This document shows positions 2,985 to 30,661 of a stretch of DNA of 64,000 nucleotides, in pieces. The DNA comes from Dipteris shenzhenensis (taxonomy: Eukaryota), in NCBI GenBank assembly GCA_047967505.1, contig CM106538.1. One strand, written 5' to 3'. The stretch's first letter is position 1; each line of letters begins with the position of its first letter. The position numbers and the translations under genes were made by a program. The notes beneath the pieces are model-generated. The model ran no database searches. It was not told the DNA's origin and saw only the letters and a list, made by a program, of their open reading frames with translations.

Positions 2985-3281
2985 AATCCTTTATCACCTT
3001 TGTAGGATTTCTTCATTGTACTAAGAGATTCCATGTGTCATAATGTGTGTGTGTGTGTGTAAATAGTCTACAATCCTTTATCACTTTTGTAGGAATTCTT
3101 CATTGTACTAAGAGATTCCATATGTCATGAAGTGTGGGTGTGTGTATGTGTGTGCGAACACGTGCGTGTGTGTGTAGTGCATGCATGCACGCATGTGTGT
3201 GTGTGCATGCATACGTACGTACATGCGTGCATGTGTGTGTGTGCATGCGCACGCATGCGTGTGTGTATGTGCATGCATGCA

Positions 3282-3330
<49 letters not shown>
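2985..3330. repeat. (TG)n/(TGCA)-rich microsatellite with a short duplicated flank
   Basis: TG runs at ~3044-3060 and ~3133-3330; AATCCTTTATCAC...CATTGTACTAAGAGATTCCA is repeated at ~2985 and ~3072. Confidence 0.95.
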
Positions 3331-3332
<2 letters not shown>

Positions 3333-3713
3333 CACAAACTTGTGAGTGGTAGCTATTGACTACACTACAATAGTTTCTCCATTGGATGCCGCATTTCATG
3401 GGGAATGGGGAAGACACTCCCTCCAAGGAGGTCCCCTAGTACCCTTCAACATTAATTCTTGGTTGCTGCCTGTCTGTGTCTCGGTCAATGTGAATCTCTG
3501 TCCATAATCTCCAATTTGGTTCCACTGCGGTATCTATTAAAGTCCATTCAATTATCTACTGTCAATATTGACAATGGTATGGTGGAATAGGGACTCCTAC
3601 TGATGCAATATTCGAGTTTTTACTGTATTCCTACCATTATTATTAAGTCCCACGGTTAGATCCCTTGTATATTACCGTTAATTATGGGTATCCATAGCTA
3701 AGCTGCATTAATT

Positions 3714-3935
3714 CAAGCGTTTTTTTTAATTTTAAAAAAACGCCCAAAAACATGTTTTTTGCGATTTAAAACATTTCAAACAATTTTTGATATTTTATTC
3801 GTATGAATAGTTATTCATACGATTAACCTATTTGTTCAAATAAACACCTATTCATACGAATAAAGTTATTCGTATGAATATACATAGTATATACTTGCAG
3901 CCACTGCCATTTTTGGTATTCATATGAATACATCC
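3714..3935 (+). mobile_element. Putative DNA-transposon terminus/subterminal region with repeated near-palindromic TATTCRTAYGAATA motifs
   Basis: Begins CAAGCGTTTTTTTTAATTTTAAAAAAACGC (fold-back), followed by several copies of TATTCGTATGAATA/TATTCATACGAATA/TATTCATATGAATA; no matching far end was found. Confidence 0.4.
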
Positions 3936-4130
3936 AACTATCTTCCTTGCCACCTCAGCCACTTGCTTGCCAGCCCTGCCACCTCCTGCGTGCCTACCTG
4001 CTATCTCCTGCTTGCTTCCATACCTACCAGCTCTCATCATAGGTACCTTACTGCACCGAGACTGCACCCTTGCTTGTGTTACATTCTTTCGTTAGTTATT
4101 AATGTTTCTTTTGTTTTGTTTTGTTTAGAA

Positions 4131-5059
4131 CTGGCACTCATCTCTCTTAGGAGAGTTGTGTGTTGTAGCCTTTTTAAATTGTTTAATATTTATTTTGTAT
4201 TGTATTTAAGTGTGTATACAGGCTGGCACTCATCTCTCTTGCGAGAGTTGTGTGTTGCAATCTGTTTTTGTCATGTGTTGTAATTTTAATTATAATATAA
4301 ATAATTATTTTTTACCTGAGGCTGGCACTCATCTCTCTTAAGAGAGTTGTGTGTTGCAGTCTCAGTTTGTATAAAAATGTTTGTTTGTAGGAACTCTTGG
4401 GCTGGCACTCATCTCTCTTAAGAGAGTTGTGTGTTGCAGTTAGTGATGTTTTCATAGATGCTTATTCTGGCACTCATCTCTCCCTTGAGAGTTGTGTGTT
4501 ACAGTCTAAGTGTAGAGATGTTTTCGAGCACTTAGTCTAGCACTCAACTGTCCCTTGATAGTTGTTTGTTGCAGTCTAAGTTAGATATCATGCAACGTGC
4601 TCTTAGACACTTAGTCTGGCACTCAACTATCCCTTGATAGTTGTGTTTTGCAGCCTAAGTTAGATATCATGCGAGACACTTAGTCTAGCACTTAATTGTC
4701 CCTTGATAGTTGTGTGTTGCAGTTTAAGTTAGATATCATGCAATGTGCTCTTAGACACTTAGTCTAGCACTCAATTGTCCCTTGAGCACTCAATTGTCCC
4801 TTGATAGTTGTGTGTTGTGGTTGAAGCCTAGTGTTAGATGGTGAAGTCCACGATTAGGTTATACCTAGGTCATTTTTTGTGTAGGTTACACGCTTATTTT
4901 TTGTGTTTTGATTTTTTGCAGTCTGTTACATGATGTGAGCTTGAGTTGAGAGGTTATATCTAGGTAATTTCTTAGACTACTTGCATTGTTAATTGTTATG
5001 GCTTAATAAGTTTCTTATTGCACCTAGCACTGAATTCTTTTTTGAATTCTGTGTTGCAG
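4131..5059 (+). repeat. Repeat-spacer array: nine 38-bp hairpin repeats plus one diverged distal copy (CRISPR-like architecture, no cas genes)
   Basis: CTRGCACTCA-WYTNTC-loop-GAKAGTTGTGTGTTGCAG at 4131, 4223, 4322, 4402, 4467, 4537, 4616, 4685 and 4764; diverged copy at 5024-5059; spacers 27-61 bp. Confidence 0.9.
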
Positions 5060-5075
5060 CTTACTGCATATGAGA

Positions 5076-5977
5076 TGGCTCACGCACGTGAGAAGAGGAA
5101 GTGTCAACAACCTGATCTCACTAAGTTTCAGAGGAAGGTGCTGAAAAATGAGAATGTACACTTCTTAATGAATGTCGATCAGGACATCATTGAGACAACT
5201 TTCCAAAATGGTGAAAGCGGTGTATAGAATTTGGTGAGGACAATAGCAGAGCATGGAGGGAGGACCTTGTGTGACCGATTTCCACATGTTTTCATAGTAG
5301 AGTCTATAGACCAGTATTTGAACCACTTAGCGATGGAGGCTCGGTCAAATAGATCGAGACATAAACTCATGTGACACAAAGTGGGAGGGTCTTGCTGTAG
5401 ATGCCAGGCTCATGTACATCAAGAATGCATGGCGAGGTTACAAAGGCAAAGGAGCTGCCTCACGACCTCCCTTCCATCAATGCACCCATGCCCCCAAGCA
5501 CAGCCACAACCACAAGCATCAATGCACCCATGCCCCCAGTCAAATGCCGCATTGCATCCACCACAACCACAAGCACCAATGCACCCAGGTCCCCAGTCAC
5601 ATGTCGCATTTCACCCAATGTTGCCACAAGCACCACTGTAGCCATGCCACGCGTATGCACCAATGCATCGACCACAACATGTCTTTCCTCGTATCCCCTT
5701 TTTCTAAGATCTTCCATACCCAAAAGAAGTTCCTCCTCCTGGTCCACATCTCCCATCTCATGCACAATCACATTTCACCCATCTTTTGCTTCTCCATTTG
5801 TGCCTCCTACCATAGGCGCAGACCACTTTCCATCTCCCGCATACTCACCTGTACCACAAATGTACTATCTATATGCATAAGCAGATACATTCCCATCTCC
5901 TTCATTCTCGCCCCTGCACAAGCACCATGCACATCACATGGCTTGTGTGATCGTGTAGCAGTGCCAAGACCATGCGG
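5076..5977 (+). pseudogene. N-terminal part (unknown domain plus Pro/His/Gln-rich linker) of the copia-interrupted kinase gene
   Basis: MAHAREKRKCQQPDLTKF... follows an acceptor-like TGTTGCAG at 5059; stops and frameshifts are present; the last frame continues into the kinase frame at 10608 once the copia and one TGCGG copy are removed. Confidence 0.6.
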
Positions 5978-6335
5978 TGTTGAGATATTGAGCTCCACTT
6001 GTGATATGCCAGCGTGACCGTTGTGCATTTATGTCACCGACTTTTTAGCTGCAGATGCGGTTGGTACACTGCCCATGAGTAATAGTTGGATGACAGCTAT
6101 CTTTATGTACTCTAGTTAGTGGCTCAGTTAGTATGCCACCTAGGTTAGCTGAGTTTGGTTTGAGACCCACATATAGGGTTCACCTATTCCTTTTGTACTA
6201 AGAGAGAGTTCTTTTGGCTTCCATAACTAAGAAGCGAAAAACTGTTTTCAGCCTCCACCTTTGTGTGTATTCCCCCATTGTGTATGCGAGAAAGCTGCAA
6301 GTGAGACTCCTTACTTCTCTCCCAGTCTCTTCACA
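5978..6335 (+). repeat. 5' LTR of copia element 1
   Basis: TGTTGAGATA...CTTCACA; about 20 substitutions versus the 3' LTR by manual count. Confidence 0.95.
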
Positions 6336-9300
6336 TGGTATCAGAGCTCGGTTCGTAGTAAGGAGCTCAAGAAAGCAAACCAAGTTCGCAGTGTCTTGGT
6401 AAGAGGATCAGTGTTGCTTTCCTTTTCAGAGTTTGGGAGCAAATCTCTGCAGGGAGCACAGCCGAAAAGTGCAAGGTTTCGGGGCCCCATTTTGGTGGCG
6501 GAAGTTTTTCACAGGCACTCTGAAAAGTGCCTTATTTTTGTTGTGCGACCATTGTTCCGTAGGTTGGTGAAAAGTTGTCGCAAAAATTGCATCGTATGCC
6601 TGTGCGCAGAGATATTGGGAGTGACAGAATCATTCTTATTACATGTTGATGCAAAATCGTCACTAGGAAGTGACTGTGGTCAAATACCGCTTTTGTCAGT
6701 TTTGCAGATTTGCCCTTGTGAGGCAGAAGTTGTGTTTTTTGCAGTGTTCTGTAATGGCGTCTAATGCTCTTTCACAGATAGTCACTGAAAAGCTTGACAA
6801 GAACAACTTCCAAGCATGGAAGTTTAGAATGACGAATTTCCTTAAGGGAAAAGGCTATTGGCAGTTCATTACTAGAGCTGAACAAGAACCAGTTATTCCT
6901 AATGTTCCCAATCAACAGGAGTTATGGTGCAGCACATGACCAATTCTGTGACAAGTGCAAAAGAAAGCAATGATGTGTGGTATGTTGACTCAGGTGCATC
7001 AAACCACATGACAGGTCATGCAGAATGGATGTAGGATGCAAGGAAAATGGAAAGACCAGGATTTGTGGAGACTGGTGATGATACTGCACATCCTATTGTG
7101 CAGATTGGTAAAATTCCTCTATCTATGCAGGATGGGAAAAAGAAATACCTGTCTGTTGTGTTTCATATCCCAAATATCACCAAGAACCTAGTTTCTGTTG
7201 GTCAAATGGTTAAGCAGAGCTTGCAGGTCAGATTTAATCCTCATGGATGCCTTGTTGAGGATATGAAAAATAAAGGTCACTTGATAGCAAAAGGGAAGAA
7301 GAAGAGTAGGATGTTTACGTTGGATGCGGACATGCCTGAATTGAGTGTAGCAATGTTTGCACATGGGACCGGTGTAGTTGCAGATATTGATATTTGGCAT
7401 AAACGCATTGGTCATGTTAATGTACAGCGACTCAAATTAATGCAGGCCCAAAATATTGTTGCTGGATTGCCTAAGTTCAAGGTTGCAAAAATGCATAAGG
7501 TATGTGAAGCCTGTCAATTTGGAAAACAGGCAAGGAAACCATTTCCTAGACATGTTCAAGAGAGTAAGAGGCCATTGGAATTAATCCACTATGATGTGTG
7601 GACTACTAAAGCTGCATCTATTGGAGGCTGTCATTATTTTGTCACTTTTATTGATGACTACAGCAGAAAAGTTTGGGTGTATTTTATGAAAAAGAAAAGT
7701 GAAGTGTTTGGGCATTTCAAAGCTTTTAAAGCTATGGTTGAGAAAGAAATAGGCCTGCAAATAAAATGCCTAAGGTCAGATGGAGGGGGAGAGTACCTCT
7801 CAAGTGAGTTTGCAAGTTCTTGCAGGAGCATGGCATAAAGCAAAAATATTCATGCAGTCATACCCAACAGCAAAATGGACTTGCAGAAAGGAAAAACAGG
7901 CATATTGGAGAGGTATCTCGTGCCATGCTTAACGAAAAGGATCTACCAGATTATTATTGGGCTGAAGCAGTTGCTACAGCAGTCTAGATAATGAACAGGA
8001 CTCCCACTGTAGCAATACATGGCATGACGCCAGAGGAGAGGTATATTGGTAGGAAACCAGATATTTCTCATTTGAAAGTTTTTGGTTGCATTGCCTATGT
8101 TCATGTGCCAGATGAGTTCAGATCCAAGTTGGATCCAAAAGCTGAGAAGTGCATCTTTATTGGTTATTCTCTATAGCAGAAAGGGTATAGATGCTATAAC
8201 CCTTCTACTCGTAAGTTTACAGTGAGCATGGTATAAACCAGTAAATGTGATTGATGATGTAGATGCACAAAATGGTAATGTTGCACAGAATTCACAGCAG
8301 CAATCACAAAACAAAATATTAGTGGACTTGTAGTGTTCTCTAGTAGTGGTTCGCATACTTCGCCATGGACAGGCAGATTGAGATCAGGAGAATCTCCTCA
8401 AAGCAATGCCAATAGTGGTATGCAAGTATCACGAAAGGGAAAAGAGAAAGTAGATCAGCCCATGGTTGATGTGAATGCAGGTCACTCTTATGTGGATGGT
8501 GAATCCAATGGCTCAGAACAGAGCCTTGATGATGAGTTGGGTATTACTTCTATTGTTACACCTGGAGTAAGGAAGACAAGGGATGTTTTGAGAGCACCTG
8601 GTAGTGAGCCTATTTTGCACAGGTCTACCAGAGTTAAGTATCCTATGGATAGGCTGAAATATGATGGATTTATAGCGATTCACTATGCCTATATGGTCAA
8701 AGTGATACATGAACCAGAACCCACTTCTTTTGAGCAAGCCATGGGAAAAGAAAAATGGGAGAAAGCCATGGATGAAGAAATGGATGCCTTGGAAGCAAAT
8801 GCTACATGGGAATTGGTGCCTTTGCCTAAAGACAAGAGTGCAATTGGCTGCAAGTGGGTTTAAAAGGTGAAGCACAATGCAGATGGTTCTGTGAATAGAT
8901 ACAAGGCAAGATTAGTTGTCAAAGGGTATGCATAGACATATGGCATTGATTATAAAGAAACATTCAGTCCGATTGCAAGGATGGCAACTGTAAGAGCAGT
9001 CATTGCTATGGCTGCATCAAAGGGATGGTCTTTACATCAGATGGATGTAAAGAATGCCTTCTTGCATGGTGAATTGCAAGAAGAGGTCTATATGGAGCAG
9101 CCATTAGGTTATGTGGATGCTGTTCATTGTTTGCAGATTGAAGAAAGCCTTGTATAGCTTGAAGCAAGCACCCAGAGCATGGTCTGACAAGATAGGACAG
9201 TATGTTGTCACTATTGGCTTTCAGATTTCCAAGGCAGATTTCTCACTTTGTGTGAGAAAAACAGAGAAAGGCATTATGCTGCTTGTCATTTATGTTGATG

Positions 9301-10243
9301 ATTTGATCATCACAGGTGATAGTGATGAAGATATCCTTCATGTGAAAATGCTATTGAAGCAGAAGTTTGAGATGAAGGATTTGGGAGAGCTGCGTTACTT
9401 CTTGGGCATTGAGGTGATTAGATCCATAAGTGGGATATGGCTCTTGCAGAGGCAGTATGAATTGGACATGCTGTCCAAATATGGGATGATAGGCTGTAAG
9501 CCTATTTTAGTTCATTTGGAGCAAAATGTGAAGTTGAGCATAGATGCAAGTGAGCTTCTGGAAGACCCTACTATGTACAGATGCATAGTAGGAAGTTTGA
9601 TTTATATGACTATTACCAGGCCAGATTTGAGCTATGCTATTGGGTTGGTAAGTCAGTTTATGCATGCTCCAAGGAAACCACATTTGGATGCGGCTAGATG
9701 CATACTGAGGTATGTGAAGTCCACATTGCAGTATGGACTATTTCATGAGACTGGGGTTTAGATACAATTGCATGGATACACTGATGTTGATGGGGCTGGT
9801 AGTATTTCTGATAGACGATCTACCAGTGGATATGTGTTTTCTTTTGGGAGTGCTACAGTCACTTGGAGCAACAAGAAATAGCCTACAGTTGCCTTGTCGA
9901 GCACAGAGGCTGAATACAGGGGTGCAGCAATGGCGAGGCAGCTTGGTTGCATAAGCTACTTTATGATTGCATCAGTCTATAGATGGGCCAATTGTCATTT
10001 ATTGTGACAACATGAGCAGTATACACTTGGCAAATAACCCAGTCTATCATGCTAGAAGAAAGCACATTGAGGTGCATTATCACTATGTGCGAGAGAAGGT
10101 TCTAGTAGGTTTTATTGATCTAGTTTATGTCAGCACAGAGGATCAGGTAGCTAACATATTCACGAAGGCATTGGGCATAGAGAAGCTGCGCAAGTTCAGA
10201 GACCTTCTTGGTGTGCACGAATTGGGATTGAGCTCGAAGGGAG

Positions 10244-10602
10244 TGTTGAGATATCGAGCTCCACTCGTGATATGCCAAGGTGACCGTTGTGCATTTATGT
10301 CACCAACTTGTTAGCTGCAGATGCGGTTGGTAGACCGCCCATGAATAATAGCTGGATGACAGCTATCTTTATGTACTCTAGTTAGTGGCTCAGTTATTAT
10401 GCCACCTAGGTTAGCTGAGTTTGGTTTGAGACCCACATATAGAGTTCACCTATTTCTTTTGTACTAAGAGAAAGTTCTTTTGGCTTTCACAACTAAGAAG
10501 AGGAAAACTGTTTTCAGCCTCCACCTTTGTGTGTATTCCCCCATTGTGTATGTGAGAAAGCTGCAAGTGAGACTCCTTACTTCTCTCCCACTCTTCTTCA
10601 CA
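10244..10602 (+). repeat. 3' LTR of copia element 1
   Basis: Direct repeat of 5978-6335, preceded by a PPT and followed by TSD TGCGG. Confidence 0.95.
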
Positions 10603-10607: not shown

Positions 10608-11361
10608 CCCATACTGCTTCAGCAAGACGAGACATCTAATTCATGCCTAGTGCAGCTGTGGACACAGGCACGAAAGGAACAGTCAGCATGTGCAATATTC
10701 TTGTTGCTCCCTTTGATTCGCACAAGATTTATGCATGTAAGGTGCTAAGGGTTTCTGTGCCAACTGATGCATTGAAGGCCAAAGCATTGGAAGAATCCAT
10801 GTGCTTGGGTGATGTCGTACATCTGGGCATCATCCAAGCAATAGGTCTAGTCCATGACGATAACCCAATGATACTACTTCCATTTTGGAATGGAAATCAT
10901 TTGGAAAGATGGCTAACCTACCTCGGACATGACGAAAAGCGACCATCTCCGGTGTTTCACAGAGATGATGCAAAAATGCTTGCTAGAGCTCCACAGGTCC
11001 GTCAGCATGTATTTGATATTTTAAGTGCACTAGCTCACACTATTCATTACATGCATCAACACAATGTCCTACATAATGATTTGCATGTGCGAAACATTAT
11101 GCTACACTTCTCGGAGTCATTCGAGGAGGTGTATCTAGACATTTGTGATTGGGGAATGATGACCCCATGCAGCACTAGAAAGCACTATCCCGCATTACTC
11201 AGTGACAGCCCCAACACTGTGCAGAGTTCCATTGCTAGGTTTCGTCACGTTGCTCCAAAATGCCTCTGCACCAATCCCCCACCTTTCGATGTTGCACAAG
11301 ATGTGTATGCCATGTCTCATCACATCCTAAAGATCTTGGACATTTGTGCACCATTGCCAAG
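10608..11361 (+). pseudogene. Atypical intronless protein kinase domain, truncated at the C-terminus
   Basis: Gly-loop-like DTGTKGTV, YACK (VAIK Lys), LEE (helix C), catalytic loop HNDLHVRNIML, DWG (DFG), HVAPK (APE), QDVYA; the frame then runs into copia gag sequence. Confidence 0.85.
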
Positions 11362-14300
11362 TATGGCAACAAGAAGCAATCAACAGGAAGTGGCTCGAGT
11401 TCAACAGCTACTGCTGCACCAATAATCCAAGCGTTGAGGATTCGCCCACCATCCTTCACTGAAGGCAAGCTAGATGGTACGAACTACACTCTCTAGAAGT
11501 TTAAAATTACTACTATTCTAGATTCATATGAGCTTTTAGAGACAGTACTGGGGACCCAGAACCACAAGGAACCCTCGACCCAGCAAATCCGAGGAGTACG
11601 ATACCTCCTAATGCCGACCTTCTACGAGCTTGGAAATGCAAGAACGCAAATGCTCTATGCCCTGGTTACAAGTACTACTGATAGTGTTTTGACCTTGATT
11701 CAACATACATCTAAGGCAACTGTGGCCTGGAACATATTGAAGAGTCAGTATGAGACGTGGAATCAGACAAGGATCCAGAACCTGGAGAATCAGCTCGCAG
11801 CTGAGAAGTTTAATGAAGGAGAGACAATGGAGGTGTTCATAACCCGAATCAGAAATCTATGTGACCAGATGGCTGGTGTTGGGATACAAAAGACTAGCGA
11901 AGAGCTAGCTCGGCGGTGTCTCCAGATATGTCCACCAAGGTTTGATGGACTGGTAACAGCGCTTAACACTCAGGTGAGACCCCAACCATTGTCATTTGAG
12001 GAGTTCTGTGCTTTACTTTATGGAGGAGGAATTGAGGCTTAAAGCTCAAGATGGAGGCGGCAATAAGGATGCTGCATTCTCTACCACTACGAAAGGCAAA
12101 GGTGGTTCCTCCACCAACGGTGAGTCCTCTACTAGTGGTGACAAAAAGAAGAAGGGCGACAAGAAGAAGTTTCAGGGAGAATGCTTCTACTGCAAGAAGA
12201 AGGGCCATGTGATTATAGATTGCTGGGTCAAGAAAGCAGATGAAAAGAATGGTACCCTGAAGAAGACAGATAAGGGGAAAGAGACAGCTAACATAGCGGA
12301 AGCAGAGTTGGATCTATTTCTGGCCATTGAGGAAGAGTGTTCCTCAGTTCAAGAAGCATCAACCACTAATTCATGGGTGTTGGATAGTGGTGCCTCCTGT
12401 CACATGACCTGCAAGAAGGGTCTATATTGTTTCATGCAGCCTCTACAAGAACCCATCACCATGACAGTTGGAAATAACGCAAAATGCCCTATTGAGGGTA
12501 CAGGTACAGTTTCATTTGTTTCTATAAATGGAGATGTTCAAAAACTATCTAATGTGTTGCATGTTCCACAAATCAAGAGAAATTTGCTATCATTTGCTTC
12601 CGTAACTGACCTTGACCATGAGGTGAGGTTCAACAAGACAGGAGCAAAAATTCTAGATAGTGCTTGCAATCTTGGTGGCACAAGAGTAAAGAGGAACAAC
12701 CTGTATGAGCTAAGTGGTCTTACAGCCACCGTTGGAGTGGGCACAAGTAGACTTTGGCACAAAAGATTCGGCCACATCAGATTTGCAGTGCTGAAGGAGA
12801 TGCGAAGCAAGGTATGGTTGCTCAGTTACCTACTATAATAGCAAAAATCAAAGAACCGTGTGAAGCTTGCATGATGGGCAAGCAACAGAGAAAGGCATTC
12901 CCATAAGAAAGCAAGAATAGAGCAAACGCTCCTCTAGAGTTGGTGCATGTTGACTTGTGCGATAAGATGCCTACACAGGCCTTGGGGGGATCTTCCTATT
13001 TTTTATTGATTGTCAACGACTATAGTAGGAAGATGTGGGTGTACTTTCTTCGTGAAAAGGCTCAAGATTTTGGTAAATTGAAAGAATGGCTATAGCTTGT
13101 TGAAAATGAAACGAGGAGAAAAGTGAAGAAAATCAGATTGGATGGTGGTGGTGAGTTTGTTTCTACAAAGTTTGGAGATTTTAGCAAGAGCAAAGGGATC
13201 AAACGACAAACCACTTTTGGGCTGAGGCTATCAATACTGCAGTTTACATCCTTAATCATAGCTATACAAAGGCACTCAAAGGTAAAACACCACATGAGGC
13301 TTACACCGGTGGCAAGAAGCCATCTATCTCCCATTTCAGAACGTTTGGGTGTGAATGCTATGTGCATGTACCAGACAAAGAGAGAAACAAGCTACAACCA
13401 AAAAGCACCAAATGTATCTTTTTAGGCTATTGTGATGAGAAGAAAGCCTATAAGTTGTATGATCGAGAGGCAAAGAAGATCATAGCGAGCCATGATGTGG
13501 TGTTCAGGGAGCAGCCACATGCAGTGGAGGCAGAGAAGAGCTCTTCCACTTTATCATCAAGCAAAGAGGTAATTCACTATGGATCTATCCCAGGAGCTAT
13601 AAAGGAGGAGGAAATATCAGATGATGAAGGTATAAGTTGCCAACCTATTGTTACACCACTGGAAAAGCCATTGCCGCCATGATGGGTAAGGCAGCAGATG
13701 CATATCTTTGTTGAGCAGCATGCAGATGGACCAAGGCGATCTCAGAGAATCGAGGAGCAAAGGAGGGCTTCTACTCACATAGTCAATATGGCCTTGATGG
13801 CTGAGATTATTGCAGAAGTAAAGGAGCCTGCACGTTTGGAGGAAGCACTTGTAGACCGAGACTGGAAAAATGCTATGCAAGTAGAATATGATAGCATCAT
13901 GAAGAATGAAACTTGGGAGCTGGTAGATCGATCACCTAGCAGAAAGGTTATTGGCACCAAGTGGGTTTGGAAAGTAAAGTACAAGGTCGATGGGACTTTG
14001 GAAAAGTACAAAGCCAGATTGGTTGCACAAGGATTTTCATAGGTTGAAGGGTGGTGTTTTGAGCAGGTTCTCCAATAAGCCCTGGGAGAATCATTGGAAT
14101 GCAGGGATGCAGGTGCTCAGGTATGTGAAGGGCACTCTTGATTATGGCATCACTTATGGTACGGGCACTTCCTTGGCTAGTCATTGTGACTCAGATTGGG
14201 CTGGAGATGTTGATTCTAGGAAATCAGTTTCTGGATATTGTTTCTCTTTAGGTTCAAGTATCTTCTCTTGGATCAGTAAGAAACAACCAATAGTGGCATT

Positions 14301-14709
14301 GTCTTCTACCGAGGCTGAGTACAAGGCAGCATATTTTGCTGCTTGTGAAGCAGTGTGGCTGAGGAGGATCTTATGGCACATGGGAGTGCAAGAGGATGAG
14401 GCAACTGTGCGGAGGTGCAACAATCAAAGTTGCATGGTCATTGCTAAAAATCCAGTGTTTCATGCACGCACAAAACATATAGAGATTTAGTATCACTATG
14501 TGCGTGATTTGATTGAGGATGGGATAGTGGAATTGGTCTGCTATCCAACAAAGCAAAATGGAGCAGATATCTTCACCAAGGCACTCAGGAAAGATCAGCT
14601 TCAGGATCATCTTCAAAGACTCAGCATTGGGCCAAGGAGGTAGTTGACCTACGAGTGGACATTGATGGGGGGTGTTACATATGCTCAATGCCCCACCCTC
14701 TTAGTAAAA
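11362..14709 (+). mobile_element. Ty1/copia element 2: no 5' LTR, internal deletions, short 3' LTR stub
   Basis: gag (KLDGTNYTL*KFK; CFYCKKKGH knuckle), protease (WVLDSGAS), integrase with deletion near 13215, RT lacking its YVDD core (jump near 14050), RNase H (DSDWAGD, STEAEY), PPT, then TGTTACATATGCTCAATGCCCC at 14673. Confidence 0.92.
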
Positions 14710-15728
14710 GGATGCGTCAATTTTACGAGCAAAAACCTATGAGCAGGTTTATCCGAGCGTGTTTTTCAAAATATTTTTAAAAATGTTTTTCTTTAAGAAA
14801 CATGGTTTTTACACTTTTATTTTCACTAGAACTAGATCCCTTTATCATAAAAATATACAGACTAGTCACTCATTCATTTTTACACAACATAATTTTCTTA
14901 TTTAGAGACATCCCTTTGTACCCCTGTTATTACCTTAAAAAAGTGTTGATTCCTTTAAGAAACATTCCTCATAATCACTCTCAATGTAATAATACTATGC
15001 ATATATAATTACTTATTAACACATTTATATCATCTGGCAATATCTTTTTAGTGTTTTTATAGCATATTTATGGACATGTTTCTAAAGAAGTTTAAATTAC
15101 TATAAATAAGTATTAACTTGGGCTTATATATCACTCTCATAAAATACATGTAATATTTAATACTATATATGGAAGATTTTCCAAAATATAACTTCATAGA
15201 TGTGCTCAAATGGGGTGTTCCGATCAATTTGAGTGGTTGAATGACTATATTTGGACATTGGTTATGAAAGTTATGTCACTTTTAAAAGTGCTGTCCAAGG
15301 TAGTTTCGCCAGCGAAACTACCTTGGGAGACTTGCTTCAAAGGGGTTTCGCTGGCGAAACTACCTGGATGGCTTCCTTCAATGAGTTTTCTTTGAAGAAA
15401 CTCTTTCATGAAGATAGGTTGAGAGAGGGTTTTCAATGTCACCCCCTATTAAGTAAAAGTTGTAAGAAGGATCATAAGGGAATTTTCATAGAGAAGTCTA
15501 CTCTACATGTGGGTTTCTTCAAAAGCCATCCCATTATGCTCTCACCATTCCTACAGATTCACCTAAAGATTTTTGTATAAAATAGGCATTGCTATAATAC
15601 TTTGCATATTTCTAAGTGAAACTATGTTTTCTTCTGATCGATTTTTGCCATATTTATGCATAGTTGGAAGCTTTTTTTTTCCTTCGCTCGGACGCTCGGA
15701 AGATTTCGCTCAGAAAATGCTCGTCCCC
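14710..15728. mobile_element. Non-autonomous ~1.02 kb Mutator-like element, copy A
   Basis: Near-identical to 24203-25221; imperfect TIRs (GGATGCGTCAATTTTACGAGC vs reverse complement GGGGACGAGCATTTTCTGAGC); flanked by TTAGTAAAA/TTGGTAAAA (9 bp, one mismatch). Confidence 0.75.
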
Positions 15729-15799
15729 TTGGTAAAATATGTTGAAATCGACTCATGTTCTCCTAGATCCCATTGCAAAATTTTGATGGAAATAGCTCC

Positions 15800-15801
<2 letters not shown>

Positions 15802-15836
<35 letters not shown>
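15802..15836. repeat. (AG)n microsatellite
   Basis: Pure AG run. Confidence 0.95.
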
Positions 15837-15837
<1 letters not shown>

Positions 15838-15838
<1 letters not shown>

Positions 15839-18442
15839 TTAGTGACAATCATTGACCAATTCTAAGGGGCACCCAAACTGTGATGACTTGTTCGTATAAA
15901 ACTTAGTTGTGGACCGCACATCATCTTTTCTTGTGGCTCTCCCCTCCACCCATTTGGTGAAATAATTGTTAGATATGCTCAATGCCCCAACCTCCTGGTA
16001 ACCACCATTGGTCCAAGGTGCTCAAGTTGTAAGTCCCCCATATGAGGAGAAGCCATGTGTGAGCCTGGGACACTGGATGGATCCTAACTTGCATGTCAGA
16101 TGAGGTCTATCAATGAGACTATTGATGGTAGAAAGGTGATTGTGTGGGAGCCCCTTATTCTTCCTGGGGCCTAAGGGCCAACTAGTCCCCAACTGGGGGG
16201 TCCTAGGGGAACCAACGGCCTCCTGGTGGGGGTTCAAGGGCGAGAGCCCCCGAGGCGATGGTATAGGGAATATTCCTTGAATATTCCATGGACGACTAGT
16301 CGGCTTCTCCGACTAGGTTGACTGGTCGGTTCCATCGACTATGCTAATCCGACTACCGCCCTCATAGTTATAAAGAGGCGACCTCCCCAATCCATTGTAT
16401 TAGATCAGTTCAGATCAGATCAGACCAGATCTTCCAGCTAGTAGCTCTTCACCTAGTATCTGTCTAGATTGACATCTAAGCTCCGCTATGGGAGCGCACG
16501 AGAGGATGGAGCCATCATCTGTACTACATCAGTATTGAAGGAAAATTTTGTTCCTCTCTAGTTTGATGTGTACTCTCTATTCTTTGTTCAGTTTCTGTTC
16601 CGCTATGCTGTGTAACTTAACAATAATCGGTGGCTAGGATAATGTATCTAGCCCCTATTCCTTTAGCTATTGGGCTTATTGGGCCAATGAAATCTATGCC
16701 CCATTTCTCAAAGTGCTGAGTAGTTAATATTCCCGTTAGGGGCATCATGTCCATTTATGTGGAATTTTCACTCTTTGGTAGGGATCACATCGCTTGATAA
16801 ACTCAATTGCATCTTCAAAGAGACTTGGCCACCAGAGGCCTGCCTGCAACACTTTACATGCCGTAATGTCAAAGGCGAAGTGACCGCCTACTATCTCAAA
16901 ATGGGCTTCTTCCAGCACGTTGATATATTCATGTTCGTCCACACACCTGCGCATGATGCCATCCTTACCCATGCGGTGTAGTAGGCCTGCAACAATTAGT
17001 TGATATGGTGCCAAGTCCTTAATGATTTTGCGGGTTCTGTCCCTCTTAAGGGCTTTGTCTAGAGGCAACCCATTTAGAGCTAGTGGCCTATTTCAGATGC
17101 CCAGTCCGGAATTATGTAAATGAGAAATAGGGGAGCATCTGGGAGGTCATCCTTAACTCCTGTTGGAGCTTGCCCATTGTGAATCATGAGAGGTTGGTTG
17201 GCTAGGATGTGGGATTTTCCTTTACACACTACGACTGTGAAGTCAAACTCTAAAAGGATTAGCATCCACCTTGTGATGCATCCCATCATGTAGGGCTTGT
17301 TAACCAAATACAGTAATGCTTGATGATCAACAAAAAAGATGAACTTGTTGGCTAATAAGTAATTCCTGAACTCCTTAACCGCATAGACCATGGCCTTCCC
17401 TCTCTATTGTCATGTAATTGACCTCAGTATTGTTTAATTATCGGCTAGGAAAGTACACGAGGTAGTCCAAGTTGTAATCCCCTCGTTGGGTTACACATCC
17501 GATGGCAAAGTTTGAGGCATCTATGTGGACATGGAATATTAGATTCCAGTCGGGGGCCCAAAGTACTAGTGCTATGGCTAGAGATAGCTTGAGGGTTTCA
17601 AAGGAATTTTTTGCATTCCTTGGTCCACTCAAATACTACTAATAGCTTGTGCAATGGGTGGGCTATGTTTGTGTAAAATAGGATGAACCTTCAATAGTAG
17701 CCCATATGGCCCATAAACCATTGCACTCCCTTGGTATTTGGGCGGGGACGTAACTCTAGAATGAGCTTGATCTTGATGTAATCCATGGAGATGCCATTCT
17801 TGGACACTATGACCAAGAGTCACATCATGTTTGACTCAAAATTGATGCTTGAGGGGATTCAGAGATATTTGGTACAACCTGCACCTCTCAAGGACTAGTT
17901 TCAATTATCTCAAGTGATCATCCCATGTCGAGTTCATGCACACATCATCCAAGAAGACTTCTACAAAGTCCCTTAGGTACTCCTTGAAGACGGTGATCAT
18001 CAACCGCTAACATGTGGCGAGCACATTTGTAAGTCCAAATATCATTACTTTGGCTACATACACACCCCACTCGATTGCAAAGGCCATTTTATGTTGATCC
18101 TTTGGGGTGATGGATACCTGATTGTATCCCAAGCATCCATTTAGGAAGCTATAAGATTCCTTTATGGCTAGTCTTTCTAGAACATGTTTTGTGAAAGGCA
18201 AGGGATAGTGGTTGTGCCTAGTAGCTGCATTGACCTTTTTCAAGGGATAGTGGTTGCACCTTGTAGTTGCATTGACCTTTTTCAAGTCTACACAGACTCA
18301 AATCTTTCCATTCTTCTTCAAGACTATCACAATGGGCGACACCCAATATGTATGCTCTATCTCATAGATGAATCCCGCATCCATGAGTTTTTGGATTTCC
18401 TCCCTCACTATGAGTGCATATTTGGGCTTCATAGGATAAGGA
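15838..18442 (-). mobile_element. Ty3/gypsy pol remnant (RT - RNase H - integrase), decayed
   Basis: Minus strand: HYPLPF...YSFLNGCLGYNQV, FGLTNV, FLDD; FHVHIDASNFAIG; FVDHQALLYL; GGHF...WWPSLF...CDPYQR; WGIDFIGP; DYFTKWVE; domain order RT-RH-IN. Confidence 0.92.
15967..16622 (+). mobile_element. Solo LTR inserted in the gypsy integrase
   Basis: TGTTAG...TTAACA termini, perfect TSD ATAAT; start resembles the 3' LTR stub of copia 2. Confidence 0.92.
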
Positions 18443-21400
18443 TGTTAGATATCAATGCTCCACTCTCATGTAACTATGCAGGAACTAGCTAACTCTACTT
18501 TAAGCCCCCCATATGAGGAGAAGGCATTTGAGTAGCTCGGTTATCCGGTAAGTCCTGGTTTGGACACCAGATGGGGGCCATGTGTGGCCTGATGGCTGGA
18601 CGAAGTTGGCACAATGCCAACTAGGCTACATGCAAGTGTGGGAAGGCATCCCATGACTGACCGCATTGAGGGTAGATGGAGCATTTCTTGGGGCAGCCCA
18701 CTCTTGGGTTGCAGGGCCCGTTTGGAGTCCCAGATGATCCCGGATGGCTATGGGCCGAACGAAGACTGTACGTTGTTGCTCTATTTTGCACACCGATTCT
18801 ATCGTGTGGTCGGTGGCCTATTTTGGGACCGACCCCTAGTCGACCGTTTTGGGCGGACTGGGTCGGTCACCCAATTGAGCCCAACCGATCATTTTGGGCG
18901 GATTGGGCATACTAGGTCAGTCACCCAATTGAGCCCAACCGCTGACTACTACTGGTGGCTATATAAGAGTAAGCCCGTGAAGCCCATTTCATCACTGGCT
19001 ACAGCAACCCTGATTCCTTAGCATCCAGCCCCCGTCCTCTATTGTTTCTGGCATGCCATCAAAGCTTCTCTCACAGGAGCGGATGGCTGGGAGGCAGCGC
19101 CATCTATTGTATCAGTTATACAGTAATCAAATTTTTTATTCGCCGTACTATCTATTTTCTCTCTTGTGTACGAGATCATGTTATCTATTAAGCACAGACG
19201 TTGTATTGTTTTCTTACATGGTATCAGAGCCTGGACTCTAGCAAGAAGATTTGGTAGTGTGTTTCTGTTTGTTGCGAGTAGATTGTGAGAGATGGCCCAG
19301 CCCACAAGACCACGAATCCCACCGTTCGACGAAAGCGAAAAGTTGGACAGCTCTAACTATCCACTCTGAAAGTTCAAGATGAAGACCATTCTAAGCCCAT
19401 ATGAGCTTTGGGACACTGCTACTGGGGTGGACGTGAGGCCGGTTGCGAGACCGGATCCAGCCAATGTAGGACAACAGGTAGTACCAACTGCGGATGAGAT
19501 TCTCGCATGGACAAGAAGAAATGCAGATGCACTGTGTTCTATTGTCTGTAGTGTAAGTGATTCCGTCATGGCGTTAATTGTACATGTCACCACAGCGGAG
19601 GCATGGATGGTCTTGAAAAATCAGTACGAGACCACGAATCATATGCGGATTCAGAATCTGGAGACTCAACTCGCGAACGAGAAAGTGTCTGAGTCTGAAG
19701 CAGCAGAGAAGTTCATCACCAAGGTGAAGAATCTGCACGATCAGATGATTGCGATTGGCATCACCATCACCATCAAGAATCTAGCACGAAGGTGTATACG
19801 GATTCTCCCACCAAAGTACGATGGTCTTGTTACAGTGCTGAATACGCAGAACAAAAATCTGCCCCTCAACTTTGAGGATTTCAGCGTGATGCTTTGGAGG
19901 AGGAGATGCATCAAAAGACGAGGACTGGAGAAGATTCGGCTTTCTACGCTGGATCAAAGAAAGGTAAGGGTAAGGACTCTGGTAACCCATCTTCTTCTGA
20001 TGATAAAAAGAGAAAGAAGAAGACCAAGTGCTTCTATTACAACAAGGCAAGGCACAAGCAGAATGAGTGCTGAAAGAAGATTGCAGATGAGAAGAACGGA
20101 GTAAAGAAAGAGTCCAGCACCAGTAGAGTTGTTCGTAGCAATTGAGGAGATTTGCATGGAGGCAGTTCATGTACCTGCGGATGAACCTTGGATCATTGAC
20201 AGTGGTGCATCGCGCCACATGACCAGGCGGAAGGATTGGTATACCCCTCTATAGCAGGTAGGGAATGACATCCAGGTAGCAGTCGGCAACGATGCAAAAT
20301 GTCCAGAAAAAGGAAAAGGTATGATTGCTCTCAAGTCAGATGGAGTTGTAAAATAGTTGTCCGATGTTCTTTATGTGCCAGACATCAAGAGGAACTTGTT
20401 GTCCGTTTCTGCGATCACAGATCGGGACCTCAAACTTCACTTCGATAAGAATGGCGCACAGATTGTGGATCTTCAAGGGAAGGTCATTGGTAAAGGTACA
20501 CGGTGCAACAACATCTACGAACTCCCAGCTTTCAGTGCTCGAGCGGATGTGAAGAACACTAAGCTATGGCATGAGAGGTTTGGTCATCTAAACCTTAGTT
20601 CTTTGAAGGAGATGCATAAAAGTGGAATGATTACAGACCTACCAAAAATTTCAGTTCTGCTCGATATATGTGAAGGTTGCATGATGGGCAAGCAGCATCG
20701 GTAGCCCTTTTCTAAAGAGGCCAGTAGGGCAAAGGCTCCTCTAGAGCTCATTCACACGAACCTCTGCGGAAAGATGGAGACGGAAGCTTTGGGTGGTTCC
20801 TAGTACTTCATGACACTGATCGACGACTACAGTAGAAGGATATGGATATACTTCCTGAAGACTAAAGATGAGGCTTTTAGTAAGTTCAAGGAATGGCATG
20901 TAATGGTCGAGAAAGAAACGGGAAGAAGGTGAAGAAATTGAGATCAGATAGAGGTGGAGAGTTCACATCAACTGAATTCGAGAGTTATTGCAAAAGTCAC
21001 GGGATCAAGAGGCAGAAACCCCCGCCACATACATCATAGCAAAATGTAGCAGAACGCAAGATGCGCGTCATTTGTGAAATGGGCAGGAGTATGTTGAAAG
21101 GGAAAGATTTGCCAAAGACTTTCTGGGCTGAAGCATGTAATACTGCAGTTTACATTTTGAATTGTAGCTACACGAAAGCTGTGAACGGGATGACTCCACT
21201 ACAAGCCTTTTCTAGTGAGAAACCTTCAGCTGCACATTTCAAAATTTTTGGATGTGACTGTTTTGTGCATGTTCCTAATGCTAACAGGACCAAATGGGAA
21301 CCAAAGAGCCGGAAGTGTATTTTCTTGGGCTACAGTGAAGAGGCGAAGGGTTACTGTCTCTATAACCCTGTTACCAAGAAGGTAATAGTAAGTCACGATG

Positions 21401-24010: not shown

Positions 24011-24128
24011 AAGGACGCTGGTGCACTGGCCTGACATCATCTAGCATGGGTATCATGTGTTGCACGAGAAGCGGGGGCACACCCTTCATGTCTGTGTACT
24101 TCCAGGCCATGTAGTCCTTGTACTCTTA
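24011..24128 (-). mobile_element. Continuation of the gypsy pol upstream of RT
   Basis: Minus strand EYKDYMAWKYTDMKGVPPLLVQHMIPMLDDVRPVHQRP joins YPMKPKY on the other side of copia 3. Confidence 0.85.
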
Positions 24129-26394: not shown

Positions 26395-27335
26395 ATATCC
26401 ATTCAATCACAAGTATAAAAATATTTATCTTTCATCCATTCATTCACATTCTCTTGAAATATTTTTAATCCATTCATTCACATCCTCTTGAAAGAATATA
26501 AAATATTGATTAAAAAGAAAGTGCAAGAATGAATAGATACGAATTGTATTTCATTTATTCACATTCTTCAAAAAAGAATGTAATGTATTCATTCGAAAGA
26601 ATGTGTATGAATGAGTGAATGTAAATTACAAATCATTCATTCACATTCTATTGAACAAATATTCAATATTCATTCAAAAGAAAGTGTAAGAATGAGTGAA
26701 TGTAAACGCAAATCGTTCATTCACATTCTCCTGAAAGAATATAAAGTATTCTTTCAAAAGAAAGTGTAAGAATGAGTGAATGTTAATTACAAATCATTCA
26801 TTCACATTCTATTGAAAGAATATTCAATATTCATTCAAAAGAAACTGTAAGGATGAGTGAATGTAAATGCAAATCATTCATTCATATTCTCTGAAAGGAT
26901 ATAAAGTATGCTTTCAAAAGAAAGTGTAAAAATGAGTGAATGTAAATTGCAAATCATTCATTCACATTCATACAAGAGAATATTAAGTTACAAATCATTC
27001 ATTCACATTCTATTGAAAGAATATTCAATATTAATTCAAAAGAAACTATAAGGATGAGTGAATGTAAATGCAAATCATTCATTCATATTCTTTGAAAGGA
27101 TATAAAGTATGCTTTCAAAAGAAAGCGTAAGATTGAGTGAATGTAAATTATAAATCATTCATTCACATTCTACCAAAAGAGTATTAAATATTCATTCGTT
27201 TACATTATATTGAAAGAAGATTAAATATTCATTCAAAAGAAAGTTTAACATAAGTGAAAATAAATTGTAAATCATTCATCCATATTCTATTAAAATAATA
27301 TTATATATTCTTTCAAAAGGAAGTGTAAGAATGTT
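26395..27335. repeat. AT-rich ~80 bp tandem array with internal inverted motifs, upstream of the hAT ORF
   Basis: Unit AAAGTGTAAGAATGAGTGAATGTAAATTACAAATCATTCATTCACATTCTATTGAAAGAATATTCAATATTCATTCAAAAG repeated about ten times. Confidence 0.9.
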
Positions 27336-27600
27336 GTAAATTTCAATTAATTTAAACAAACAAATAACGCATTTAATTCATATACGATAACTTATGAGTT
27401 TCATTTTAAAAGATGAAACTCTAAGCACTCTACCAAGTAAAAAAAACAAAGCAACGAACATTAAGATCAATAAGACGAAGAACTATTATAAACAAAGGGC
27501 AAATCACATTTTACATTTCAAATAAGTTCAACAAAAAAGTAAGAAGAGAACTTATGGAGTCTCATTTTGAACAAGATGATTTTATTCATGTGGCTTGCCT

Positions 27601-27661
<61 letters not shown>

Positions 27662-30546: not shown

Positions 30547-30661
30547 GTAATTTGCCGTCGATAGACTCGAAATTTGCTCTCTCTGGTGTACACTCAGCAT
30601 TATGATCATCCAAGGGGCCGTCTTTCTCAATTCCTTTGTTTCCTGCTGATTATGTTTACAG

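What the first reader, a model, noticed from the sequence alone, without database searches (positions are those of the whole stretch)
4131..5059. CRISPR-like array of 38-bp hairpin repeats with variable spacers and covarying stems in a plant genome
Seen: nine 38-nt repeats (CTGGCACTCATCTCTCTTAAGAGAGTTGTGTGTTGCAG type) separated by spacers of 54, 61, 42, 27, 32, 41, 31 and 41 bp. The first four spacers are unrelated to each other; the last four are related by duplication. The central stem changes while pairing is kept: CTCTC/GAGAG becomes CTATC/GATAG (compensatory), then CTGTC/GATAG (G-U), while the 4-nt loop varies freely (TTAG, TTGC, TTAA, CCTT). A tenth copy at 5024-5059 keeps the outer arms (CTAGCAC...TGTGTTGCAG) with a wholly different stem, GAATTC-T6-GAATTC. 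Ordinary satellite drift would not conserve repeat and structure while spacers turn over. Inference: a structured RNA array in the leader of the downstream kinase gene, which could be processed into small RNAs or act as repeated protein-binding stem-loops. No cas gene is present, so it is not called a CRISPR.
Basis: partly seen in the sequence, partly recalled or inferred. Interest (0 to 1): 0.82.

Follow-up and report, generated by a model that had tools for sequence, protein, structure and literature searches.

The report
Hairpin repeat array before dead kinase gene
A real run of ten hairpin-forming repeats sits just upstream of a broken kinase-like gene in a transposon-rich plant-like genome; it behaves like a palindromic minisatellite, probably inside a leader intron, and no function is shown.

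Summary
The array is real. Nine 38-nt units lie at 4131-4820 and a tenth at 5024-5059, all on the + strand, with no other copy in the 64 kb. Each unit is the core of a longer imperfect palindrome of about 50 nt, because the spacer edges pair across it. Pairing is kept through changes on both sides at 8 of 21 pairs, and 0 of 500 shuffles reach the observed covariation. The loop varies most.

It also behaves like a tandem repeat. Neighbouring units are most alike, there is a 148-nt higher-order period and a perfect 19-nt slippage duplication, and spacers S4-S8 are homologous. In the youngest duplication the core is no better kept than the spacer.

The array lies between a CT-rich stretch and the start codon of a kinase-like gene. 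That gene is dead here: a stop, a frameshift, a copia insertion and a truncation. A DNA run of a related organism holds the same units and spacers in the same order, in several variants.

Best reading: a palindromic minisatellite in a leader intron. A selected RNA hairpin array is not excluded. No RNA data could be had.

The parts
3795..3931 (.). Cluster of five sites of a near-palindromic 15-mer (TTATTCGTATGAATA) in alternating orientation. It lies upstream of the array around a TATA-like TATATAC at 3888-3894. Role as promoter-region sites is inferred.
   Evidence: 6 matches at up to 2 mismatches (5 sites, one read on both strands), all within 3795-3931. Expected 0.09; 0 of 100 shuffles reach 6. 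(I2, I3, I5, I6).
3935..4043 (+). CT-rich stretch, a putative untranslated first exon, ending in AG|GTACCT at 4043/4044. This is inferred, with no RNA evidence.
   Evidence: C 0.42, T 0.28. Sequence.
4044..5059 (+). Putative leader intron (GT...CAG), T-rich, holding the whole array. Inferred.
   Evidence: T 0.41, A+T 0.63. There are 14 ATGs between 4102 and 4998..
4131..4168 (+). Unit u1 (loop TTAG, 3' end TTGTAG)
   Evidence: 67.1 bits
4223..4260 (+). Unit u2 (loop TTGC, 3' end TTGCAA)
   Evidence: 73.1 bits
4322..4359 (+). Unit u3 (loop TTAA). Its extended palindrome 4316-4365 is the most stable, at -27.2 kcal/mol.
   Evidence: 78.2 bits
4402..4439 (+). Unit u4, whose core is identical to u3 (38 of 38)
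4467..4504 (+). Unit u5 (stem as in u1-u4, loop CCTT), intermediate between the two unit types
4537..4574 (+). Unit u6 (stem CAACTGTC/GATAGTTG, with G-U at pair 26-35)
4616..4653 (+). Unit u7 (stem CAACTATC/GATAGTTG, with A-U at pair 26-35)
4685..4722 (+). Unit u8, the copy of u6 within the 148-nt higher-order repeat
   Evidence: (D2: 93%)
4766..4804 (+). Perfect 19-nt tandem duplication inside unit u9 (slippage)
   Evidence: period 19, 2.1 copies, 100% matches
4783..4820 (+). Unit u9 (3' end TTGTGG, so the AG is lost)
   Evidence: 61.5 bits
5024..5059 (+). Unit u10: outer arms kept, inner stem GAATTC-T6-GAATTC. It ends in the CAG that would be the acceptor, 15 nt before the ATG.
   Evidence: -12.6 kcal/mol, z -4.1; 52.4 bits
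5075..5227 (+). ATG and first open piece (50 codons, then TAG) of the kinase-family gene. Assigned as the start only by position.
   Evidence: Searches find no BLASTP similarity of these 50 residues to two relatives. One search puts the family start near 5088 by profile register.
5337..5537 (+). Piece homologous to the N-terminal domain of the kinase-family relatives. It is in another frame than the ATG piece, which implies a frameshift.
   Evidence: E 0.0078, profile positions 84-158. (E 0.019 over 14 residues)..
5978..10602 (+). Copia-type LTR retrotransposon inserted in the gene. LTRs are 5978-6335 and 10244-10602, 94.2% alike, with target duplication TGCGG.
10625..11380 (+). Kinase domain of the gene. 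It lacks the C-terminal 40-60 residues of its relatives and is followed directly by copia gag sequence.
   Evidence: Pkinase, E 5.8e-18. (tblastn with 8 relatives)..

Best explanation
This is a palindromic minisatellite in the 5' leader of a kinase-like gene that is a pseudogene here. It most likely lies inside a leader intron.

The basic unit is an imperfect palindrome of about 50 nt, which would fold as a hairpin in the + strand transcript or in single-stranded DNA. The last unit (u10) carries the probable acceptor CAG, 15 nt before the start codon.

The upstream units look like products of repeated local tandem duplication of that hairpin-bearing intron end. Slippage, unequal exchange and AT-rich indel growth in the spacer middles would then have reshaped them.

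Pairing of the arms is kept through compensatory changes. I think this is more likely a by-product of how palindromes mutate than selection for an RNA function. Such by-products include template switching between arms and an exposed, hypermutable loop.

Shown: the array, the hairpins, the covariation, the tandem-repeat dynamics, the dead gene, and related copies in another genome. Inferred: the intron, the origin from u10 and the mutational cause.
For: Tandem-repeat behaviour:
- Core identity falls with distance along the array. u3 and u4 are 100% alike, u1-u4 are 89-100% alike, u6-u9 are 79-92% alike, and the two groups are 63-79% alike, with u5 between them.
- There is a 148-nt higher-order period at 87% and a perfect 19-nt duplication.
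- The array aligns to itself one unit out of register at 71.5% over 656 columns.
- S4-S8 are homologous.

No sign of recent constraint:
- In the youngest duplication (u6+S6 against u8+S8) there are 3 differences in the 38-nt core and 2 in the 41-nt spacer.
- u6 and u7 each carry a stem-breaking C.U, and the 19-nt duplication disrupts u9.

Position:
- A CT-rich stretch ends at AG|GT (4043/4044).
- The T-rich stretch 4044-5059 holds 14 ATGs and ten hairpins, then CAG, then the ATG at 5075.
- The N-terminal profile hit sits in the right register.

The gene is dead: a stop and frameshift, a copia insertion with target duplication, and 3' truncation.

In another genome, DNA run X1 holds contigs 90-99% alike over 4354-5128 with the same order S3-u4-S4-u5-S5-u6. 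Up to 6 distinct contigs cover one place. So whole arrays are inherited, and spacers are not acquired.

Template switching can create and repair stems in one event (PMC8794818, abstract).
Against: The hairpin is better kept than a neutral repeat should be:
- 84% of 208 cells pair, against 32-52% when partners are slid by 1-3 columns.
- 8 of 21 pairs change on both sides, reached by 3 of 500 shuffles. The covariation score is 0.234 against 0.144 +/- 0.022, reached by 0 of 500.
- Pair 9-54 shows five pair types.
- Minimum changes per column are 0.33 in the inner stem, 1.75 in the loop and 2.33 in the flanks (u1-u9).
- u3 and u4 are identical over the core while their flanking spacers do not align.

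Wobble pairs point to the + strand:
- There are 26 G.U cells in 11 pairs against 7 A.C cells in 5 pairs. The inner stem has no A.C cell.
- The + strand hairpin is the more stable in 9 of 10 units.

These points fit selection on a + strand RNA. The intron and the origin from u10 are not shown by any RNA data.
Confidence: 0.5

Rival explanations
1. A selected RNA hairpin array. In the pre-mRNA leader the ten stem-loops would act in cis. They could mask decoy branch or acceptor sites, set splicing or expression of the kinase-like gene family, or serve as repeated binding sites for an RNA-binding protein.
For: - Covariation and pairing stand above the shuffles and the slid controls.
- The loop varies while the arms are kept.
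- G.U exceeds A.C, and the + strand is the more stable in 9 of 10 units.
- u10, at the probable acceptor, keeps the fold with another inner stem.
- Related copies of the array and of the gene start are kept at 90-99% in another genome.
Against: - There are only 10 related sequences, and the structure was derived from them, so the controls lean towards it.
- The unpaired bulge columns are as conserved as the stems (0.25 changes per column). This fits conservation of the sequence arms rather than of pairing as such.
- The youngest duplicates show no core-specific constraint.
- The copy here belongs to a dead gene.
- No Rfam family reaches its threshold.
- There is no RNA evidence either way.
Confidence: 0.22
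2. Part of a repetitive or mobile element. The array, the 15-mer palindromes upstream and the start of the ORF would belong to a multi-copy unit. Its repeats would act at the DNA level, as binding sites for an element-encoded or host protein or as a target of silencing. A recalled analogue is the repeat-bearing leader and subterminal regions of En/Spm-type transposons.
For: - Several distinct variants of 4354-5128 exist in run X1: up to 6 contigs at one place, with loose ends where copies diverge at 5056 and 5126-5128.
- A second cluster of palindromic 15-mers lies at 3795-3931.
- The neighbourhood is almost all transposons.
- The kinase-like family is small and unnamed.
Against: - There are no terminal inverted repeats, and no second copy of any part of 3300-6000 in the 64 kb.
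- No transposase is linked to it. The hAT-like and MULE-like ORFs lie far away and on their own.
- A dimeric DNA-binding site would not need complementary changes in its two halves, yet these are seen.
- Several variants could also be ordinary paralogues or alleles.
Confidence: 0.13
3. A cluster of small-RNA precursors (microRNA-like or hairpin siRNA) in an intron.
For: Ten hairpins stand in tandem on one strand. Weak sub-threshold Rfam rows to MIR828 and MIR2619 overlap u3-u4.
Against: - Stems are about 20 bp including mismatches, shorter than needed for a 21-nt duplex plus lower stem (a recalled criterion).
- The Rfam rows are far below threshold: 24.1 against 69 bits and 17.8 against 113 bits, E 0.27 and 0.71.
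- Those rows arise from pairing between neighbouring units.
Confidence: 0.04
4. A CRISPR-like adaptive array.
For: It only has the look: short palindromic repeats with unlike spacers.
Against: - The context is eukaryotic and transposon-rich, and no Cas family appears among the 24 ORFs scanned.
- The repeats diverge along the array.
- Spacers measure 27-61 nt, are partly homologous and are AT-rich low complexity.
- The same spacers in the same order occur in another genome.
Confidence: 0.01

Closest known systems
Minisatellites (tandem repeats with units of tens of bases) in introns and untranslated regions, including ones with palindromic units
   Same: Head-to-tail units of 65-99 nt, a neighbour-similarity gradient, a higher-order period, internal slippage duplication and indel-rich AT spacers.
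   Different: The 38-nt core is much better kept than the rest of the period. Its two arms change in a complementary way.
Hairpins created and repaired by replication template switching (Monttinen and Loytynoja 2022, PMC8794818; abstract read)
   Same: Multi-base compensatory changes and swaps of a perfect stem, as in the GAATTC/GAATTC stem of u10 and the paired C-to-A and G-to-T changes at pair 26-35.
   Different: That work concerns RNA genes.
CRISPR arrays
   Same: Short partly palindromic repeats alternate with dissimilar spacers.
   Different: The setting is eukaryotic, with no cas genes. Repeats are not uniform, spacer lengths are irregular, spacers are partly homologous, and the array is inherited whole.
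Polycistronic intronic small-RNA clusters of plants (microRNA or snoRNA clusters; recalled)
   Same: Several stem-loops lie in tandem on one strand in a probable intron.
   Different: Stems are about 20 bp, no family model matches at threshold, and no C/D or H/ACA features were found by Rfam.
Repeat-bearing leaders and subterminal regions of En/Spm (CACTA) transposons (recalled, not tested against a sequence)
   Same: Arrays of short direct and inverted repeats lie between promoter and coding region in a multi-copy unit.
   Different: No CACTA termini, no transposase and no element boundaries were found in the window.

Membership tests
Minisatellite / tandem repeat | Head-to-tail copies of one unit detectable by a tandem-repeat finder | tested here: met
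   One search gives periods of 70, 79, 69 and 148 over 4402-4786, with scores 171-496. (D1) gives 10 copies spaced 65-99 nt. u1-u4 were not reported by TRF (4131-4401), because their spacers are too unlike.
Minisatellite / tandem repeat | Whole period homologous between copies, spacers included | tested here: inconclusive
   Met for S4-S8. Weak for the pre-u1 stretch against S1 (z 3.2). Not met for the middles of S1-S3 (18 of 18 pairs with z of 0.8 or less).
CRISPR-Cas | cas genes nearby | tested here: not met
   24 ORFs were scanned against Pfam. They gave copia gag/pol, LINE RT/endonuclease, DUF659 (hAT-like), a kinase and nothing else. This is not an exhaustive scan of all 96 listed ORFs.
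CRISPR-Cas | Near-identical repeats and spacers of uniform length, unrelated to each other | tested here: not met
   Core identity goes down to 63%. Spacers are 27-61 nt, and S4-S8 are related.
Plant microRNA precursor | Stem long enough for a 21-nt duplex with a lower stem (recalled criterion) | tested here: not met
   The longest unit hairpin has about 20 pairs in 50 nt.
Plant microRNA precursor | Discrete small RNAs mapped to one arm | not testable with these tools
   The only run found is DNA.
Any Rfam family | Score at or above the gathering threshold | tested here: not met
   30 rows with E up to 1 in 3000-7000, none at threshold. Within the array the best is 24.1 bits against 69.
Structured cis-regulatory RNA (generic) | Covariation supporting a conserved fold | tested here: inconclusive
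   One search is positive against the shuffles and the slid controls. But it rests on 10 related copies from one locus, and the structure was derived from them.
Structured cis-regulatory RNA (generic) | Transcription of the region on the + strand | not testable with these tools
   No RNA run was available.
DNA transposon end (TIR element, MITE) | Terminal inverted repeats and target-site duplication bounding the unit | tested here: not met
   Self-BLAST of 3300-6000 against the window found no inverted partner. A model search found no further unit. Elements longer than the window cannot be excluded.

The most novel reading that the evidence does not exclude
The hairpins are a selected RNA module shared by the leaders of a small, lineage-restricted kinase-like gene family. 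Ten or more stem-loops in a leader intron would each enclose an acceptor-like TTGCAG and a branch-point-like site. Their stems would be maintained by compensation while loops and spacers run free. The module would act as a splicing or expression gate, or as a multivalent protein-binding platform. That would be a eukaryotic cis-RNA array with no described counterpart.
Probability: 0.15. Interest if true: 0.65.

Novelty: new member of a known kind. Interest (0 to 1): 0.3.

Why it matters
If the ordinary reading holds, this is a clean worked example of a trap. A palindromic tandem repeat can imitate both a CRISPR array and a covarying RNA, so covariation counted among copies of one array should not be read as function.

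If the bold reading holds, it would be a repeated stem-loop module controlling a plant gene family from its leader intron. It would be testable by RNA-seq and by reporter constructs with and without the array.

Tried and rejected
- **Own genome:** none is held for this window, so genomic copies could not be collected.
- **Sequencing runs:** one DNA run was listed with a small share of words (0.07), and no RNA holder was listed. In the laid run, 3900-4319 and 5160-5977 had no cover. Neither blank says anything about expression or absence.
- **Motif scans:** a degenerate form of the unit gave 0 matches in metagenome contigs, genome contigs and viral contigs. These collections hold little or no plant DNA.
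- **Loci encoding kinase relatives:**
  - Viral contigs gave 6 pattern matches, none confirmed.
  - Metagenome contigs with one relative gave 39 pattern matches, none confirmed.
  - So no relative's leader could be inspected.
- **Word-based protein search of the kinase ORF:** nothing in the near length range.
- **Atlas searches:** only generic kinase clusters and a weak Do-like protease lead.
- **First 50 codons after the ATG:** no BLASTP similarity to two relatives.
- **Helitron end, CACTA end, U12-type branch site and intron-enhancer motif:** considered by eye. I dropped them because the motifs, recalled from memory, did not fit the units consistently.
- **Whole-stretch folds:** -310.7 kcal/mol for the + strand and -229.8 for the - strand. 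The + strand is G+U-rich, so this difference is not evidence by itself.
- **Bacterial-type terminator scan:** 8 sites against 0.8 expected. This only re-detects the hairpins.
- **Literature:** searches for a described counterpart found none among the titles listed (59 papers held all terms, 10 listed; 488 papers held at least 3 of 4 terms, 10 listed; 2 papers, both listed). I saw listings only.

Full report
**1. What is there**

Between 4131 and 4820 the + strand carries nine copies of a 38-nt unit (CTGGCACTCATCTCTCTTAAGAGAGTTGTGTGTTGCAG type). A tenth, more divergent copy lies at 5024-5059.

This is not chance:
- The 36-nt core occurs 4 times at up to 3 mismatches, and in none of 100 shuffles.
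- Its 13-nt 3' end occurs 9 times at up to 1 mismatch, all on the + strand between 4156 and 5059. The expected number is 0.15.

A covariance model built from the ten units and run without filters over both strands of the 64 kb finds only those ten, at 52-78 bits, plus their own reverse strands. The next match has 12.9 bits and E 0.59. A self-BLAST of 3300-6000 against the window finds nothing outside the array except an LTR edge. So the array is unique in the window.

**2. Anatomy**

Every unit folds by itself into a hairpin of -10.9 to -14.5 kcal/mol, z -2.3 to -4.1.

The unit is in fact longer. The last 6-9 nt of the preceding spacer pair with the first 6-9 nt of the following one. Examples are CTGAGGCTG/CAGTCTCAG around u3 and ACTTAGTCT/AGTCTAAGT around u6-u8. 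This gives imperfect palindromes of about 50 nt with about 20 pairs, and up to -27.2 kcal/mol.

The hairpin has these fixed imperfections:
- a U.U mismatch (columns 20 and 41) in all ten units;
- a second U.U (pair 23-38) in u1-u5, which is A-U in u6-u10;
- a two-base bulge;
- a G.U pair in all ten units.

So the imperfect palindrome was inherited as such. It was not made afresh for each unit.

**3. Covariation**

I counted my 21-pair structure on the 62-column alignment of the ten units:

| Measure | Observed | Control |
|---|---|---|
| Cells forming a standard pair | 84.1% of 208 | 31.7-52.4% when 3' partners are slid by 1-3 columns |
| Pairs with a change on both sides | 8 of 21 | reached by 3 of 500 shuffles |
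| Covariation score | 0.234 | 0.144 +/- 0.022, reached by 0 of 500 shuffles |

Examples:
- Pair 26-35 is C-G (u1-u5), A-U (u7) and G-U (u6, u8, u9).
- Pair 9-54 is U-A (u5-u8), G-C (u3), C-G (u2), A-U (u1) and U-G (u4).
- Relative to u8, u10 has G-C for U-G at 21-40 and U-A for U-G at 24-37.

Minimum changes per column among u1-u9:

| Column class | Changes per column |
|---|---|
| Inner stem | 0.33 |
| Bulge or mismatch columns | 0.25 |
| Loop | 1.75 |
| Outer stem | 1.83 |
| Flanks | 2.33 |

G.U cells outnumber A.C cells, 26 in 11 pairs against 7 in 5 pairs, and the inner stem has none of the latter. The + strand hairpin is the more stable in 9 of 10 units.

There are caveats. These are ten related copies from one locus. 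The structure was derived from them. The outer-stem columns of u1, u2, u4, u9 and u10 are barely alignable. The tool's own text warns that related sequences can beat every shuffle without any structure.

There are also breaks:
- C.U in u6 and in u7;
- C.A in u2;
- a 19-nt perfect duplication that disrupts u9.

**4. Spacers**

By local alignment against shuffles, S4-S5, S5-S6, S5-S7, S6-S7, S6-S8 and S7-S8 are related, with 0-2 of 300 shuffles as high. All 18 pairs involving S1, S2 or S3 are not (z -1.9 to 0.8). The stretch before u1 is weakly like S1 (z 3.2, 4 of 500).

The edges of all spacers are homologous because they belong to the palindrome. The unalignable parts are AT-rich: 80%, 80% and 67% A+T in S1-S3. 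By eye they are low complexity.

**5. Tandem-repeat dynamics**

- Core identity shows a neighbour gradient. u3 equals u4, u1-u4 are 89-100% alike, u6-u9 are 79-92% alike, and the two groups are 63-79% alike with u5 between them.
- TRF reports a 148-nt higher-order period (87% matches) and the 19-nt duplication.
- In the youngest duplication (u6+S6 against u8+S8) there are 3 differences in the 38-nt core and 2 in the 41-nt spacer. Four of the five are C/T differences. So there is no sign that the core was protected recently.

**6. Setting**

Upstream lie, in order:
- five sites of a near-palindromic 15-mer at 3795-3931;
- a TATA-like TATATAC at 3888;
- a CT-rich stretch at 3935-4043 (C 0.42, T 0.28) ending in AG|GTACCT;
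- a T-rich stretch at 4044-5059 (T 0.41) that holds the array and 14 ATGs;
- the CAG of u10 at 5057-5059 and an ATG at 5075.

I infer a leader intron at 4044-5059. No RNA evidence backs this.

Downstream is a kinase-like gene:
- A profile of the N-terminal domains of five relatives hits 5337-5537. It is the best of 2687 pieces of the whole window (E 0.0078, profile positions 84-158, next best 2.3). That register places the family start near 5088.
- The kinase domain is at 10625-11380 (Pkinase E 5.8e-18; tblastn with 8 relatives).

The copy is dead:
- a TAG at 5225 and a frame change before 5337;
- a copia element at 5978-10602, with 94.2% alike LTRs and a TGCGG target duplication;
- loss of the C-terminal 40-60 residues, where copia gag sequence begins.

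The family is small and unnamed. There are 155 representatives at E up to 0.001 and 23 at E up to 1e-10, and the best hits are Logan/ENA proteins without names. The rest of the window is copia, LINE and hAT-like debris.

**7. Another genome**

One DNA run of a coded organism A held part of the stretch. Laid at 80% likeness or more, 26 contigs of 69-147 nt matched within 4354-5128. None was 99% or more alike, 12 were 95-99%, 12 were 90-95% and 2 were below 90%.

- The contigs keep the order S3-u4-S4 and S4-u5-S5-u6 (records 1 and 2) and S6-u7 (records 3 and 4).
- Up to 6 distinct contigs cover one place (5008). Loose ends show copies that diverge after 5056 and after 5126-5128.
- So the array with its spacers is inherited as a block and exists in several variants there.
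- Of the five variable places listed in 4576-4650, three are the loop of u7 (4633-4635), one is a stem base (4641) and one is an outer-stem base (4614).
- In 4440-4569, one variable place is a stem base of u5 (4498) and four lie in S5.
- One contig has GGCAC, eight other bases and TTGCAG where u3 stands. In that copy the inner hairpin is replaced while the outer frame is kept, much as in u10.

**8. Reading**

The array is a tandem repeat of a palindromic unit in the leader of a gene family. I think it most likely arose by repeated duplication of the hairpin-bearing 3' end of the leader intron, and that in this dead copy it evolves without function.

The kept pairing can be explained in two ways:
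- Selection on a + strand RNA hairpin. The G.U excess, the variable loop and the refolded u10 favour this.
- The mutational behaviour of palindromes. Template switching between arms creates and repairs stems in single events (PMC8794818, abstract read). An exposed loop may also mutate faster, which is my inference. The equally conserved bulge columns, the lack of recent core-specific constraint and the uncorrected breaks favour this.

With ten non-independent copies I cannot separate the two. I put 0.5 on the minisatellite reading without dedicated function, 0.22 on a selected RNA array, 0.13 on a DNA-level role within a repetitive or mobile unit, 0.04 on small-RNA precursors and 0.01 on anything CRISPR-like.

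**9. Comparison and novelty**

- It works like a minisatellite and meets that definition for most of its length.
- It fails the defining features of CRISPR: no cas genes, non-uniform repeats and related spacers.
- It fails those of microRNA precursors (stem length, a recalled criterion).
- No Rfam family reaches its threshold in 3000-7000.
- Three literature searches (listings only) showed no described counterpart of a hairpin array in a plant leader intron. That is weak evidence of absence.

I rate it a new member of a known kind, of modest interest. It is also a useful warning that covariation among copies of one tandem array is not evidence of RNA function.

Noticed in passing
window 3795-3931: Five sites of a near-palindromic 15-mer (TTATTCGTATGAATA) form two tight inverted pairs plus one degenerate site, around a TATA-like box. 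They occur only here in the 64 kb. They could be transcription-factor sites of the gene-family promoter or part of a repeat unit.
   Followed up: partly
window 5504-5617: A 57-nt tandem repeat (2 copies, 87-88% alike) lies in the Gln/Pro/His-rich linker between the N-terminal domain and the kinase domain of the dead gene. It lengthens the linker compared with relatives.
   Followed up: no
window 10625-11380, and relatives P0001-P0010, P0153: A small, unnamed family of proteins of about 450 residues. Each has a helical N-terminal domain and a divergent kinase domain (HNDLHxRN, DWG in place of DFG, C-terminal SGLRPF). It is known only from unnamed Logan/ENA assemblies. The window copy has lost the glycine-rich loop motif.
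   Followed up: partly
window 5978-10602: A copia-type LTR retrotransposon with 358/359-nt LTRs 94.2% alike and target duplication TGCGG. Its reading frames are broken.
   Followed up: yes
window 11400-25500: Nested and rearranged copia elements. A gag begins right after the truncated kinase without a 5' LTR. LTR pairs lie at 18501/23349. A repeat of 1 kb or more at 14710 and 24203 (98% alike) carries a hAT-like DUF659 ORF on the - strand (25221-25691).
   Followed up: partly
window 3044-3330: (GT)n microsatellites and a 32-nt GT/GC-rich tandem repeat. They draw many sub-threshold microRNA rows in Rfam, which are low-complexity artefacts.
   Followed up: no
window 26491-27314: An AT-rich satellite with a period of about 160 nt (7 copies of a 103-nt segment, 61-100% alike to the reference). 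A GA-rich stretch follows at 27425-27886, read from the ORF translation.
   Followed up: no
window 29922-30605: An ORF with a weak lead (Atlas score 0.81) to streptophyte Do-like (Deg) proteases. It may be the only ordinary host gene seen in the window.
   Followed up: partly
window 49369-52121 (- strand): A LINE-type element with endonuclease and reverse-transcriptase ORFs (RVT_1, Exo_endo_phos).
   Followed up: partly
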